Shown here: piece by piece, positions 3,001-51,000 of the stretch
Numbering within the stretch: position 1 is the first letter of the stretch
Layout: each line of letters starts with the position of its first letter
Source of the DNA: Magallana gigas
Taxonomy: Eukaryota
Assembly (NCBI RefSeq): GCF_963853765.1
Contig: NC_088854.1
Coordinates: forward strand, 51,274,001-51,338,000
Reading direction: 5' to 3'
DNA length: 64,000 nt
Made by a program: the position numbers

Positions 3001-6000
3001 ATTAACAAAATGGAAATTAACATTTCTATTGTCAAATTATATATCATTAAGTATTTTTAACCGATTTTGATTCCTGGGGCATACAAATTATAAAAAATGC
3101 TATATTCTTTTTCACAGCCAGAGATCCAGACGAACCTTATCAAAAATCACCATTCTACACATCAACCTATTTATTGCTTACATCCTTCGAGCTTCTGTAT
3201 CACTTTTGAGGAACTACATTTTTGGCAGGGCGTTTGTGCTCTCTCTGAACGGTCATCTTAAGACAGAGACAGACTATACGGTCAGTTAATGGGAAACAAT
3301 GCTCAAACAAAACATTGAAAAATAAAGCCCTCACTGTTTTCCTGCTTTAATTCACAATGAGTTAATTTTGCGTTTCAGTATGCTACTATGAATTTTGTTC
3401 GCAGCGACATCTTTTCGCGATCAAATGAATTGAGTGTTAGCAAAAGCAAAACTGCGACAAATTGTACTTATAATATCACAAATAGAGAAATATTTTTATG
3501 TATGTCATTGGAGGAAGACAAAGCTATTCAACAGCTCGTATGTTCATGTTCTTTGTTTACAGCTATATGATTATTGATAATCTCTGTTTACAGCTACATG
3601 ATTGCTGATAATTGTTGATAATTTCTGTGTCTAGCAATGGGTGTGCAAGCCGATAACCACCTTGTTCGTCTATGCTTTGGTAGCCAGCACTTTTTGGCTC
3701 AATGTGGAGGCGTTTGTCCTGACCAAACTTATCGTCGACTGGAAATATCTACAGAAGAGAAACAACGTCTTTGTTCATATTGCCATAGGATGGGGTAGGA
3801 TCCTTTTACTGTTTACGTTTTTGTTCATATTGTTATAGGATGGGATAGGGTCCTTTTACTGTTTACGCCATTGTTCATACTGCCATAGGATGGGGTAGGA
3901 TCCTTTTACTGTTTACGTCATTGTTCATATTGCCATAGGATGGGGTAGGATCCTTTTACTGTTTACGTCATCGTTCATTTTGCCATAGGATGGAGAAGGA
4001 ACCATTAACTTACTTCTTATTAAGTAAAGGGTTCTCAGACTCACACTGCATAATTTTGGTCCCAGAATGTACAGGAACTCTAAATACCTCTGCTGTTCTA
4101 ACTGCCTTCAGGGATGACATGAACCAAACGGTCGTTATATTGAAAATATCTTTTTTACTAGTTACGGCAGTAAAACTTTTTGTTTAAGTTTTTTCACTCA
4201 TACATATATTTATTGATATAAAAACAAATTAATTCACGTAGGCTGTAACAACATCAGCGTAAAAAACACTTTATCTATTAGTGGGTACGTTTCGATATTC
4301 ACGAACACAGACAATTTGGCTCCAATAAATCATGGACATATGTGGATAAGATTGGCCTGATTTAGAGGTGAACCCATTATTTTTTTTTAACGATATCCGT
4401 TCCCTTGCAATGTTCGATAATTCTTGATTAATCTAAAATGATTTATATACACATGTCTGGTAAAAATATTTGAAAATATGGTATCACGTACGATGTTTTA
4501 TTCTCTGTCTGTACGCTGCATGGTGGCTTTTAAATTTTCATGAAATTCTATAATAGAGTAATTACACATTTTTTTAAATTACGGAGTTAGGTAGATTACT
4601 ATATGGACAGATATAGCAGTTGCAAATTGTTTTGACCTCTCTTTGACAGGGGGTCCGCTGCTCATTGTCGTGCCGTGGCTAGTTCTCCGGGTTGTAACAG
4701 AGGATGATTGGTAAGGTCACGTGATTATTGCATGGTTACGTATGATGCGATCTCAGATACTCGTACACAAGTTACTACATATGCCATGAGCTAAAATTTT
4801 AATAAATTTCAATTTACTGATATTTTTTTGAAAAAATTAAAATTCTGTATATATACATTATACATCAAATACTGTACCCGACAGTAATATGTTAGCATCC
4901 TTGTTCTATTAAGGTTGTAAACCAATATGAATTATTCACTTAAATAACAGTTTATAAAAAATTCAGACATTAAAATTGTAACATATTACATGCAGTATTT
5001 TTTAAAAATCCTTCTCAGTAGTATAATTGATTACATTTAGTGGGGTACTTGTGTTTTAGTTGTAAAAGCAAGTCCGGGATAGCACTGAATTAGCAGTAAA
5101 ATTCATCATAATTCATACGCTTGATCACTGCATGTAGACAATTACTGGTATTGGATGAAAATTTCACCAACAATATATTATGTGAACGGGAAAAAACGAA
5201 AATTTCAGGAGATTACTGGTTTTCATGATACCTCTTCTAAAAAACATATACCTAGAAAATCTATTGTTTTATATTTATCAATGAATGAATAATTTACTTT
5301 TGGTATACAAAATGTTCTATTTTTTCTCCCTGATTCACAGGTGCTGGATTTCCTACACCTGTGAGTGGTCGATGTGGGTTTTCGTCAGGGGACCTGTCTT
5401 TATCAGTATTTTTGTAAGAGTTTTCAATTACTTTTTTATTTTTGATATTCATGTATTTACATTTATAGTATATAGTAGTATCTACAAGTGTTTCGAGAAC
5501 AAAAAGAGAGTGAATGGAAGCAATTTTGTTAAACTCAGACAGGTAACAAGGTCGGGTGAGCGGGGGGGGGGGGGGGGTCGGGGGGCTGTATTTTTGGTCT
5601 ATATTTGTCTGCACGCAGCAATATTCACACCATTTAAAACAAAGTTAACACGGATGACAGCTTGGATGTTTAGGACAGAACACTACCAATATATAAAATT
5701 TAGAAAATAAGCGCAATCAAGATTACTGGTATAAATGTATTTTTTATCTTTTAAATCTGTAATTTCCGTCCCCTACATCATGGACACGCAAGTGCTACAT
5801 CCCATTCAAAATTGTTATCAGTCAAATGTCAGATGATGTTAAGTAGGCCTAGTTGTGTTTTAAACTAAATACACTGTATCGTTATATAACTTTTAAAACA
5901 CAACGACTTGGCATCATCTTCACATGATTTAATCATATTTTCACACAAACATATATATACATGTATATAAATATATATATATATATATAGAGAGAGAGAG

Positions 6001-48000: not shown

Positions 48001-51000
48001 ACCTGAATATAATCTCACAAACATGTAGAGTTTTTTACAGACTTACCTGGCCATCAATCATGTATGAAATCATTATTATCTGATCAGTTTGAGAATCAGG
48101 GAACTTCAGAGGTAATTTTGTTGTTTCTATGTCAAAAGCCAAAACAACAGGATCCTACAAATATCATATAAATTAAATGGTTCATATGGTATAAACATCA
48201 ACACATCATTCTAATGTTTACAGACAAAACAAGAGCTGACCGGCCTGTCGACGAGATCCTCTCTGTGGCGAATTTCTACTGGAAGTGATCCCCGCCCCCT
48301 CACCGTGTACCAGTGACCCACAAAGATCTTCAGGTCAATGGAAACTCGCACATGGTATGGAACGTCATACTCTCTGTAATTAATTCACAATATTCAGTTA
48401 CATAGTAATCACCAATTTACGAAAAATCATCAATTATGAAAAAATCTGAATTTCATATCATGAACTATGTTTACATTAAATATTGCATACTGTGAATATA
48501 ATCATATTTCACACACATGGATTTTTCAAATCAATAATTATCTATATAATAAAATACAATGTACCATATTTGTGTATCATTAAATGTACCATATTTATGT
48601 ATCATTAAATGTACCATATTTGTGTATCATTAAATGTACCATATTTTGTATCATTAAATGTACCTTATGTCAATGATATTCTCCATTTGATTTGTTGCTT
48701 TGTTTTCAGAATTATCCCCGTCTGCCCCAAGAAGATGGCTGTAAATAAAGTCAAAATTAAATCATGTTCAGCCATTTTTCATATACAAGTGCCGCTGTTA
48801 ACAAATGTGTGCACCCATACTTGCTGAGCAACGTTGTGTAAGCTTCACTGGACTGTTCTCGCTCTTTATTTTTGCGGACTGCTGGCTGGATTTCCCGTCT
48901 CACTTTTGTAAGGTCCTCCACTGAGAGAAAAGACAGCTTCAAATATTGTCGCTTTAGTCCCACCAAGTGATTTGGCTAAAATAAAAAAAAATGACAGCTG
49001 TCATATCCCACTAAAAAATCTAGATCTTACAGCAGATTAAAATGTATAATTGCAGAAGAAGTTGTCTTCTTACCAAGTCTAAATCCTCTTTGAAAACAGT
49101 CTCTACGGTGGCTAATTTCCCTGAGAATTTTTTGGTCAAATACGATGCTACTTCTCTTTCACATCCTTGCTTTGTAGCAACAAAGAAGTATGGCTTAAAC
49201 GGAAGTGTGGCCTAAATTGTAAATATACATAATATATAGATAGCAATAACATTTAATCAGAATTCAAGATATATAATGGAAAATTCATTTAGGTTGATAT
49301 TGTTGAATACATGTACATGAATATTGAACTGTTTCTGATATAAATCATGATAATTGATTCATATATTTTAAATGGTAAGATGACCAATTTCATTTAATAT
49401 TTCAAATTTTGTTCATTACCTTAAAACGAGACCCATCTTCTTCTAGAAAGTAATAATCCACAGCACTTATCAACTGCTTATTCTCATCCAATATGTCTGC
49501 CTATAAAAATTCATAAAAGTAAAATAATGTCAGAATGGTATATGTACTTTTCTTTCCTTCGTCATGTTTCTTTTGATGGAAGCATTTCAAAAAGTATTAA
49601 GATTGTTTTGACAGAAACGCTTCTCAAAGAAAAGAATTGTTTCAATTCCGTCGAAAAAAAAATCTACATAAAGTTTACTTCTGCAGAATAAAAACACAAG
49701 TTATCTAACTCCAAATTATGGAATGAGACTCTCCCCATAAAATGCTGCCATTTCCATTTCATAAGAAATGCATAGAAAAAGAGTTTACTATAATCCTACT
49801 GTATAACTTCATTTATAGTCTTCTATCTGCTTTATATTGTTCAAAACATTTAGAGCATATCAAAATTATGATGCCAAAACTGAAATTTTAAAATAAGCGT
49901 GATTTTCTTGCAATATACAAAGTTACATTTTTGCCATTATAGTTTAGGTTTAGAAATAAAGAACAGTTTACCAAAAAGTTGATTGATGATTTTAAACAAT
50001 ATCTTTTTCATGTTTTGCACAGTTTTCTAGAGGGCAGTTGGTTTAGAATTAAGGTACTGTGAAGTTAATTGATGATTTTACGTTATATCATTTTTAATGT
50101 TGTTGGATCGTCTATTAAGAACAGTTGGTTGAGAAAAATGATCTTTTAAATGTTTTTGCAGTTTTATGTGTAAGCACCCAAATTCCAGTATTTTCAAGGC
50201 TCTTGTACTGACAGTATTTTGGAATCATGCGTATAGTTTGTGTATGAGGAATGTTTTCGAAGCTGTTAAATTAGACGAAAAAATAAATTAAGGCAACCAT
50301 TTATGCATGTAGGCCATTCCAAGTTTTTTCTATGTTTAGCATCCGCGGACGGATTGGTTTTAAGATGTCAAAAAAAAAAAAAAAAACAATGGTTGTTCAT
50401 AAAATTCAATAATTTTTTTGTATATCGGGCTCGGGATCGCAATTTTAAAACGGGACCGGAAATCAAATATTTATAAATATAAACAACATTCAAAATGCAA
50501 GATGTCAGTTCTACTATAATGCAGGGAATGTATTTGTTTTTCAATTCTTATATGAAGTTTTGTGCCAAAGATATGAATTTTTTTTAATTATAATATTTGT
50601 TATTTTTGTTAAAAAACGAAGAGAAGACTTCAAAATATATCATAAATTTTATTTTGTTGAACCTTTAAAGTTGTGTGTTTTTTCTAAGGTTTGTGGGGTT
50701 TTTTCCTGATAAAAAGATAGGTTTTTGAGTTTGGGGTGGATGCTAAACAAAGAAAAAACTTGCAATGGCCTTATGGTTATGCATATACATTATGGGAGTT
50801 AAGGCAAAAAAGCAATGATATTTCTTAAAGGAAAAATTGAAGGTAATTATTGAGTTAAAAATATCTCCTGTAATTCCAAAGATATCTAATATCTATTTTA
50901 TTATCAAAATATTTGTTTTTTCAATGAACATACAGGGTGCATATTGATAAGCCATCCAGTTCTATCCTTTGCCTCTTTGTATCTGTCAAACCCAAACTTG

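What the first reader, a model, noticed from the sequence alone, without database searches (positions are those of the whole stretch)
3553..48665. Recurrent short tandem duplications at splice junctions, multiplying donor or acceptor sites in two genes
Seen: at least six unrelated tandem duplications of 25-50 bp cross or directly abut an exon/intron junction. These are the GPCR exon 6 acceptor region (31 bp), the GPCR exon 6 donor (50 bp x4.7), the POLE exon 51 acceptor (about 45-50 bp x5), the POLE exon 49 donor (50 bp x2), the POLE exon 8 donor (44 bp x2) and the POLE exon 6 donor (25 bp x4). Comparable duplications away from junctions seem fewer (8091, 37756, 38975). None of the exact unit lengths (25, 31, 44, 50) is a multiple of 3, and the frame-correct junction is always the copy nearest the exon. 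Established: tandem duplication across splice signals is a proposed route to intron gain and junction sliding. Inference: this lineage may generate such duplications preferentially at junctions, or selectively retain them as NMD-coupled decoy splice sites.
Basis: partly seen in the sequence, partly recalled or inferred. Interest (0 to 1): 0.65.

Follow-up and report, generated by a model that had tools for sequence, protein, structure and literature searches.

The report
Oyster minisatellites that repeat splice sites
Several short tandem repeats in two oyster genes start or end exactly on an exon edge, so the splice signal is copied several times into the intron; this kind of repeat is already known from human genes, varies between oyster haplotypes, and looks like tolerated variation, not a purpose-built decoy system.

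Summary
The anatomy is real. The window is oyster DNA (Crassostrea gigas or a near relative). It holds POLE (minus strand, about 52 exons) and a secretin-family GPCR. Five unrelated arrays with 24-51-bp units and 2-6 copies have their end unit across an exon/intron boundary. They reiterate four donors (GPCR exon 6; POLE exons 6, 8, 49) and one acceptor (POLE exon 51). The sixth, 31-bp array is wholly intronic and ends 13 nt before the GPCR exon 6 acceptor AG.

The productive site is always the exon-contiguous copy. All 8 intact decoy donors would give premature stops.

The arrays behave as polymorphic minisatellites. Independent public contigs carry one copy at exon 49 (3 of 3 informative). 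At exon 51 they carry 0, 3 and 3 decoys, against 5 in the window, which also has a 1.35-kb insertion.

Junction-crossing arrays are about 3.5-fold more frequent than random placement predicts (nominal P 0.006-0.02, n = 8-12, post hoc). That is a lead, not proof.

Selected NMD decoys are not supported: the arrays are not fixed, and GT/AG is kept in 12 of 15 decoy copies.

The closest known cases are the human F7, IFI6, CBS, LMNB2 and PDGF boundary-spanning minisatellites. No genome-wide or RNA test was possible.

The parts
3550..3621 (+). 31-bp tandem duplication (2.3 copies) in GPCR intron 5. It is wholly intronic, ends 13 nt before the exon 6 acceptor AG, and carries two AGs preceded by pyrimidine tracts.
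3635..3794 (+). GPCR exon 6 (7tm_2 profile positions 75-129, TM3 to the start of TM4). The true donor GT is at 3795-3796.
3765..4014 (+). 50-bp minisatellite, 5 copies (4.7 by TRF). The first unit holds the last 30 nt of exon 6 plus 20 nt of intron. Intact decoy donors are at 3895 (+100) and 3945 (+150). GT is lost in copies 2 and 5.
4650..4711 (+). GPCR exon 7 (rest of TM4). It fixes intron 6 at 3795-4649.
26328..26460 (-). POLE exon 51 (zinc-finger region). The true acceptor AG is at 26462-26461.
26461..26560 (-). Exon-proximal block of the exon 51 acceptor array: the 3' half of decoy d (labelled e) and decoy f. If these decoy acceptors were used, the exon would begin at 26552 and 26503.
26565..27924 (.). 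About 1.35 kb of unrelated sequence inserted inside decoy copy d (boundaries approximate). It is absent from two independent contig ORFs.
27925..28065 (-). Distal block of the exon 51 acceptor array: decoys a, b, c and the 5' part of d. If the decoy acceptors of a and b were used, the exon would begin at 28045 and 27994. Copy c has lost its AG.
28821..28947 (-). POLE exon 49. The true donor is AAG|GTAGGA.
28742..28841 (-). 50-bp duplication, 2 copies, 90% identical (21 nt of exon plus 29 nt of intron). The decoy donor is at 28770 (+50 nt, a frameshift; stops follow 11 codons into exon 50).
   Evidence: a single copy in P0126, P0127 and P0129
48047..48154 (-). POLE exon 8. The true donor is CAG|GTAAGT.
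47956..48049 (-). 44-bp duplication, 2.1 copies. The unit begins 3 nt inside exon 8. An identical decoy donor lies at 48002 (+44 nt, with an in-frame stop before it).
48664..48738 (-). POLE exon 6. The true donor is AAG|GTACAT.
48558..48668 (-). 24-25-bp minisatellite, 4.5 copies. Four decoy donors lie at 48639, 48614, 48589 and 48564 (+24, +49, +74, +99 nt), all behind an in-frame stop at 48656.
8091..8172 (.). Comparator: 41-bp duplication, 100% identical, outside the two genes.
37755..37833 (.). Comparator: 40-bp duplication, 100% identical, deep in POLE intron 25.
38974..39066 (.). Comparator: 31-bp array, 2.9 copies, in POLE intron 23, 88 nt from the donor.
42111..42187 (.). Comparator: 32-bp array, 2.4 copies, 100% identical, deep in POLE intron 18.

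Best explanation
These are ordinary, copy-number-variable minisatellites or short tandem duplications. I infer that they arise by replication slippage or unequal exchange in a very polymorphic oyster genome.

When a duplicated segment happens to include an exon/intron boundary, the result is a row of identical splice signals. The exon itself stays contiguous with only one of them. Such alleles survive because the splicing machinery keeps using the exon-proximal site. For donors this most-upstream preference was shown experimentally for the human F7 intron 7 minisatellite. Any leak to a decoy yields a premature stop, and that transcript is presumably removed by NMD. Duplications of the same sizes that fall wholly inside exons would shift the frame and be purged. 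What remains visible is therefore intronic arrays plus boundary-spanning arrays.

Shown here: the anatomy, the productive site, the premature stops, the polymorphism, and the lack of fixation.
Inferred: the mutational mechanism, the splice-site choice in vivo, and NMD of leak products.
For: Five arrays span a boundary and one abuts it.

The units are unrelated in sequence, so these are independent events and not one mobile element.

The productive junction is the exon-contiguous copy. The residue difference is 0 for the exon 6, 8 and 49 donors and -1 for the exon 50/51 junction; overall 39 of 49 POLE introns examined gave a difference of 0. A public protein that reads GPCR exons 5 to 8 as spliced uses the first-copy end of exon 6.

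All 8 intact decoy donors lead to stops.

VNTR behaviour:
- Exon 49 is single-copy in P0126 (96% identical, 23 member sequences), P0129 and P0127. That is 3 of 3 informative hits out of 4; P0128 does not reach the site.
- At exon 51, P0124 has no decoy, P0121 has a, b, c, and P0122 has b, c, d. The window has a, b, c, d (split) and f. P0123 and P0125 start inside the last decoy and are uninformative about copy number. None of the informative ones has the 1.35-kb insertion.

GT/AG is kept in 12 of 15 decoy copies. I estimate, without a computation, that copies 84-96% identical would keep about that share by neutral drift.

The same architecture, also polymorphic, is described for human F7 and listed for IFI6, CBS, LMNB2 and PDGF. 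For F7 there is experimental proof that only the most upstream donor is used (PMC1557585, abstract and Introduction read).
Against: Boundary-crossing arrays are nominally over-represented. The counts are 4 of 8 (expected 1.22, P = 0.022), 5 of 9 (expected 1.40, P = 0.0064) and 5 of 12 (P = 0.022). For POLE alone the count is 4 of 7 (P = 0.016), or 3 of 6 strict arrays (P = 0.053). A purely uniform neutral model does not predict this.

Junction arrays have more diverged copies than off-junction arrays: first-pair identity 0.87-0.96 against 0.97-1.00, U = 0, exact p = 0.016, n = 5 versus 4. Simple neutrality does not predict this either.

The exon 49 copies differ by 10% although the duplication is not fixed. 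That is odd for a young allele.

For the acceptor array, the F7 most-upstream-donor rule does not explain why the most downstream copy is the one used.

No RNA data were available.
Confidence: 0.65

Rival explanations
1. There is a real junction bias without function. Short tandem duplications either arise more often at exon/intron boundaries or persist longer there. In compact genes under deletion pressure, deletions that would erase an array next to a splice signal are selected against (a 'deletion shadow'). Boundary arrays would then live longer and diverge more than deep-intronic ones.
For: There is a local excess of about 3.5-fold. Boundary or near-boundary arrays are 87-96% identical between their first copies, against 97-100% for the four off-junction arrays (U = 0, p = 0.016). 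The boundary arrays are also the only ones with more than 3 copies. POLE introns are short: median 208 nt, and 19 of 51 are under 150 nt.
Against: The sample is tiny (8-12 arrays) and the window was picked for this pattern. The exon 49 duplication is absent from 3 of 3 other sequences, so at least one 'diverged' array is not old and fixed. No mechanism was tested. Junctions outside POLE and the GPCR are under-counted in the whole-window null model.
Confidence: 0.2
2. These are selected decoy splice sites. The arrays are kept because regulated use of out-of-frame decoys, coupled to NMD, tunes POLE and GPCR expression.
For: Every intact decoy donor gives a premature stop. Several decoys match the true 9-mer at 8-9 of 9 positions. 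POLE carries four such arrays.
Against: The arrays are not fixed. Exon 49 is single-copy in 3 of 3 informative sequences. The exon 51 array has 0, 3, 3 or 5 decoys and is disrupted by an insertion in the window. 3 of 15 decoy copies have already lost GT or AG. The premature stops follow automatically from reading into an intron. There is no RNA evidence.
Confidence: 0.05
3. This is an assembly artefact. Divergent haplotype ends or gap-closing errors in a highly heterozygous genome were laid down in tandem.
For: The two exon 49 copies differ by 10%, like two alleles. The second copy's exon part carries a residue (Y) found in 2 of the 4 non-oyster POLE sequences that matched the motif scan, the other two having C and S. 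No independent sequence shows the two-copy state.
Against: The exon 51 array is multi-copy in two independent contig ORFs. Arrays of 4.5-5 copies with graded divergence are not what a two-haplotype overlap produces. The window has no N.
Confidence: 0.05

Closest known systems
Human F7 intron 7 37-bp VNTR; also the boundary-spanning minisatellites of IFI6 (6-16), CBS intron 13, LMNB2 and PDGF listed with it (PMC1557585; abstract and Introduction read)
   Same: In both, a minisatellite has its first monomer across an exon/intron boundary, so the authentic donor is followed by identical pseudo-donors. Copy number is polymorphic, and the exon-proximal site is the productive one. The F7 unit (4 nt of exon plus 33 nt of intron) resembles the POLE exon 6 and exon 8 arrays (about 5 and 3 nt of exon).
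   Different: Here the host is a mollusc. Copy numbers are lower (2-6). Four arrays sit in one gene and a fifth in its neighbour. One array reiterates an acceptor plus the exon start, not a donor. Use of only the proximal site is inferred from homology and was not measured.
[quoted passage not shown] Passages of PMC4974935 and PMC3443670 were read. Gao and Lynch 2009 is not held and is known to me only through those citations.
   Same: A short tandem duplication inside a gene copies splice signals. The potato case likewise duplicated an intron end together with the start of the next exon.
   Different: No new intron lies between the copies here. The arrays sit at junctions where the public POLE proteins already align exon to exon, and they only lengthen an existing intron. 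Junction sliding is possible in principle but was not observed.
CeRep25B intronic minisatellite near alternative splice regions in C. elegans (PMC4039745; abstract only)
   Same: An intronic minisatellite is associated with splice regions.
   Different: That is one repeat family carrying regulatory motifs. The units here are unrelated to one another and are copies of the local junction itself.

Membership tests
Boundary-spanning minisatellite (F7 IVS7 type) | Head-to-tail repeats with a unit of roughly 10-100 bp | tested here: met
   Units are 24-51 bp with 2-6 copies.
Boundary-spanning minisatellite (F7 IVS7 type) | The terminal unit contains the exon/intron boundary, so the splice signal is reiterated in the intron | tested here: met
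   Met for 5 of 6 arrays. The 31-bp GPCR array does not contain the boundary.
Boundary-spanning minisatellite (F7 IVS7 type) | Copy number varies between alleles (VNTR) | tested here: met
   Exon 49 has 1 copy elsewhere against 2 in the window. Exon 51 has 0, 3, 3 or 5 decoys.
Boundary-spanning minisatellite (F7 IVS7 type) | Only (or mainly) the exon-proximal site is used in mRNA | not testable with these tools
   There are no RNA data. Homology shows only that the proximal site is the productive one.
Intron gain by tandem duplication (Rogers model) | A new intron runs from the GT of one copy to the AG of the next copy of a duplicated exonic segment | tested here: not met
   Each array lies at the end of an intron whose other end is far outside the array (intron lengths 239-1909 nt). 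There is no copy-to-copy intron.
Regulated unproductive splicing (NMD-coupled decoy or poison sites) | Use of the alternative site introduces a premature stop | tested here: met
   True for 8 of 8 intact decoy donors. This follows trivially from reading into an intron.
Regulated unproductive splicing (NMD-coupled decoy or poison sites) | The alternative sites are conserved or fixed | tested here: not met
   The exon 49 decoy is absent in 3 of 3 informative sequences. The exon 51 decoys number 0 to 5. 3 of 15 decoy copies have lost GT or AG.
Regulated unproductive splicing (NMD-coupled decoy or poison sites) | Decoy-junction transcripts exist and rise when NMD is blocked | not testable with these tools
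   No transcript data were available.

The most novel reading that the evidence does not exclude
In oysters, short tandem duplications truly accumulate at exon/intron boundaries. Either junction DNA is a duplication hot spot, or arrays that touch a splice signal are shielded from the deletions that quickly erase deep-intronic arrays. Either way, genes would carry a standing, polymorphic supply of reiterated donors and acceptors. That supply is raw material for junction sliding, new alternative splicing and NMD-buffered expression variation, and it could be studied within a single population.
Probability: 0.2. Interest if true: 0.6.

Novelty: new member of a known kind. Interest (0 to 1): 0.35.

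Why it matters
If the local excess holds genome-wide, oysters would offer many natural, segregating experiments on how the spliceosome chooses among identical neighbouring sites. This covers donors as in human F7, and also acceptors, for which no such natural model was named in the text I read. It would also allow a direct population-level look at the first step of junction sliding or intron change by tandem duplication.

If it does not hold, the finding is a tidy example of a known class: VNTRs that span a splice junction. It is useful mainly as a warning for gene prediction. Two public protein models already start or break inside these arrays.

Tried and rejected
- Third copy at the GPCR acceptor. 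I tested whether the true GPCR exon 6 acceptor is a diverged third copy of the 31-bp unit. It is not supported: local score 15, shuffle p = 0.056, and 111 of 1724 background windows score as high.
- One repeat family. I tested whether the arrays share a unit or belong to one mobile family. blastn-short found no cross-hits except between the two exon 51 blocks.
- Terminal inverted repeats on the 1.35-kb insert. Only a local 15-nt hairpin at 27889-27921 and A/T-rich matches were found. Pfam gave nothing for its open frames. The element type stays unknown.
- Whole GPCR model from Pfam alone. Only 7 of 89 frames hit HRM or 7tm_2 at E up to 1. Exon 7 was found only with a public protein. The other GPCR exon ends are approximate.
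- Unmapped POLE exons. About 46 residues of POLE between 29605 and 28947 (probably two exons) were not mapped. Placeholders were used in the null models.
- Gao and Lynch 2009 could not be read.
- Mollusc literature. The listings showed no paper on such arrays at junctions in molluscs. These four searches are not exhaustive.

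
Full report
WHAT THE WINDOW IS

The window has no N and is 34% G+C. I take it for oyster DNA, not human.

Translated exons match DNA polymerase epsilon catalytic subunit (POLE) of many animals. The first search gave 1031 proteins with E <= 0.001 among 1067 candidates. 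The last two POLE exons are residue-for-residue identical to a public fragment named Crassostrea gigas POLE, P0125. The window is therefore C. gigas or a very near relative.

GENE MODELS

I mapped POLE exon by exon. Named, non-human public POLE proteins were run against the window with tblastn. Junctions were then refined by GT/AG, frame and residue count.

POLE lies on the minus strand from 51480 to about 23375. Fifty colinear exon cores were found.
- 39 of the 49 introns between them gave a best junction with a residue difference of 0.
- 8 gave a non-zero difference.
- 2 were settled by eye.
- About 46 residues between 29605 and 28947, probably two exons, stayed unmapped.

A secretin-family GPCR lies on the plus strand from about 916 to 7060, with HRM and 7tm_2 hits. 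Its exon 6 is 3635-3794 and its exon 7 is 4650-4711. The other GPCR exon ends are approximate.

THE SIX ARRAYS

GPCR exon 6 donor. The exon ends at 3794 and the donor is G|GTAGGA. A 50-bp unit made of the last 30 nt of the exon and the first 20 nt of the intron is present five times, at 3765-4014.
- Copies 3 and 4 keep a perfect 9 of 9 donor, at +100 and +150 nt.
- Copies 2 and 5 have lost GT.

POLE exon 6 donor. The donor is AAG|GTACAT (exon end 48664). It is followed by four ATG|GTACAT decoys at +24, +49, +74 and +99 nt.

POLE exon 8 donor. The donor CAG|GTAAGT (exon end 48047) recurs identically 44 nt downstream.

POLE exon 49 donor. The donor AAG|GTAGGA (exon end 28821) recurs as AAG|GTAGGG 50 nt downstream. 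The unit holds 21 nt of exon plus 29 nt of intron.

POLE exon 51 acceptor. The unit is about 18 nt of intron end plus the first 25-43 nt of the exon.
- Copies a, b, c and the 5' part of d lie at 27925-28065.
- The rest of d (labelled e) and copy f lie at 26461-26560, directly before the true acceptor. The exon starts at 26460.
- About 1.35 kb of unrelated sequence splits copy d.
- Four decoys keep an AG with a 14-20 of 21 match to the true site.

GPCR exon 6 acceptor. The 31-bp array at 3550-3621 is purely intronic. It ends 13 nt before the acceptor AG and adds two AGs with pyrimidine tracts at -72 and -41. I found no support for the true acceptor being a third copy.

The units of the different arrays share no similarity.

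WHICH COPY IS PRODUCTIVE, AND WHAT THE DECOYS WOULD DO

In all five crossing arrays only the exon-contiguous copy gives the residue count seen in other POLE proteins. For the GPCR, a public protein that reads exons 5 to 8 as spliced passes from the first-copy end of exon 6 into exon 7.

Seven of the 8 intact decoy donors lie behind an in-frame stop. The eighth, at exon 49 +50 nt, shifts the frame and meets stops 11 codons into exon 50.

It does not hold for the offsets +24, +99 and +150.

ARE THE ARRAYS REAL, AND ARE THEY FIXED?

Open reading frames predicted on independent public contigs read through two of the arrays, so they act as other haplotypes or sister species.

Exon 49 (4 hits, aligned):
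- P0126 (96% identical, 23 member sequences), P0129 and the more distant P0127 all pass from the exon end straight into the sequence that follows the second copy in the window. They therefore carry one copy.
- P0128 does not reach the site.
- The window's 50-bp duplication is thus an allele, or, less likely, an artefact. It is not fixed.

Exon 51 (5 hits, aligned):
- P0124 goes from the unique upstream flank directly into the true acceptor. It has no decoy.
- P0121 has a, b, c and then the true copy.
- P0122 has b, c, an intact d and then the true copy.
- P0123 and P0125 start inside the last decoy and are uninformative about copy number.
- None of the informative ones has the 1.35-kb insertion.

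This array is therefore real in independent assemblies, is copy-number variable, and was later hit by an insertion in the window's haplotype.

The other three crossing arrays could not be checked this way.

IS THERE AN EXCESS AT JUNCTIONS?

A uniform detector (period 20-60, two full copies, at least 80% identity) gave 14 merged hits. Five are microsatellite-like and 9 are true arrays. Each of 20 block shuffles gave 0 or 1.
- Four of the 9 cross a donor.
- One lies next to an acceptor.
- Four are elsewhere.
- The degenerate exon 51 array falls below the threshold.

For the null model I placed a unit of each array's period at random inside the two gene spans and discarded wholly exonic placements.

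| Set of arrays | Crossing | Expected | P |
|---|---|---|---|
| In-gene strict | 4 of 8 | 1.22 | 0.022 |
| Plus exon 51 | 5 of 9 | 1.40 | 0.0064 |
| Crossing or within 25 nt | 6 of 9 | 2.33 | 0.012 |
| POLE alone | 4 of 7 | 1.14 | 0.016 |
| POLE alone, strict | 3 of 6 | - | 0.053 |
| Plus three weaker in-gene TRF rows, none at a junction | 5 of 12 | 1.77 | 0.022 |

These numbers are small, and the window was flagged because of the pattern. I therefore treat the roughly 3.5-fold excess as a lead only.

A second, unplanned observation points the same way. The first two copies are 87-96% identical in the five boundary or near-boundary arrays, against 97-100% in the four others (U = 0, exact p = 0.016). 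Only boundary arrays exceed three copies.

INTERPRETATION

The architecture is a known one. The Introduction of PMC1557585 describes minisatellites whose first monomer spans an exon/intron boundary, so that the donor is reiterated. It names human IFI6, CBS, LMNB2, PDGF and F7. In F7 the 37-bp unit has 4 nt of exon and 33 nt of intron and occurs in 5-9 polymorphic copies.

That paper's abstract reports experiments showing that the pseudo-sites are functional but silent, because the most upstream site is chosen by a 5'-to-3' scanning-type process.

The oyster donor arrays fit this description point for point, apart from the missing RNA evidence.

I therefore read the arrays as tolerated VNTR-type duplications. 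Duplications wholly inside exons are purged. Intronic and boundary-spanning ones persist. The proximal site keeps the gene working.

[quoted passage not shown] No new intron lies between the copies.

Selection for decoys is not supported. The arrays are not fixed, and 3 of 15 decoy copies have already lost GT or AG. By my own estimate, not a computation, that is about what neutral drift gives at the observed copy divergence.

WHAT REMAINS UNEXPLAINED

- The nominal excess at junctions and the greater divergence of the boundary arrays. A 'deletion shadow' next to splice signals would explain both, but it is untested.
- The two exon 49 copies differ by 10% although the duplication is not fixed. 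It may be an old allele in a very diverse species, an exchange between divergent alleles, or an artefact.
- How the most downstream acceptor is chosen at exon 51.

LIMITS

There were no genome-wide data, no RNA data and no long reads. Gao and Lynch 2009 could not be read. Supplementary files were not consulted.

Noticed in passing
window about 26565-27924: About 1.35 kb of unrelated sequence is inserted inside one decoy copy of the POLE exon 51 acceptor array. It is absent from two independent contig ORFs (P0121, P0122). It has an A-run at 26676-26693 and a 15-nt hairpin at 27889-27921. No terminal inverted repeats and no Pfam hit were found, so the element type is unknown.
   Followed up: partly
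window 60575-61243, 61601-62948, 63535-63991: Short arrays of 166-168-bp monomers (3.8 to about 6 copies). By length and copy number they fit the Cg170/HindIII-like arrays carried by Helentron-type Cg_HINE elements described for C. gigas (PMC7492417, passages read). The sequences were not compared.
   Followed up: partly
window 3766/3767 and 4648-4740: An unnamed public protein (P0131) ends GPCR exon 6 at 3766, where a GT forms the first bases of the 50-bp unit. It then reads exon 7 in another frame and runs past its donor. This is either an alternative transcript or a gene-prediction artefact caused by the array.
   Followed up: partly
window 26461-26486 (minus strand): The public fragment named C. 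gigas POLE (P0125) starts at an ATG 26 nt upstream of the exon 51 acceptor, inside the last decoy copy, and then splices correctly to exon 52. This is most likely a truncated gene model and is not RNA evidence for decoy use.
   Followed up: partly
window 9655-11413 (+), 14391-20743 (+), 55800-56700 (+), 25588-25860 (-): Other genes in the window are a Kv-type channel (BTB_2 plus Ion_trans), a phospholipid scramblase, and mitochondrial ribosomal protein L28. A hAT-transposase dimerisation fragment lies inside POLE intron 51. None of the three genes holds a 20-60-bp array.
   Followed up: partly
window 32894-32945: A TCA trinucleotide microsatellite (16.7 copies) ends 20 nt from the acceptor of POLE exon 38.
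   Followed up: no
window 28742-28841: The decoy copy of the exon 49 end encodes Y where the true exon and three oyster sequences have C. Y is found at that position in 2 of the 4 non-oyster POLE sequences that matched the motif scan; the other two have C and S. The single-copy alleles look like the exon part of copy 1 joined to the intron part of copy 2.
   Followed up: partly
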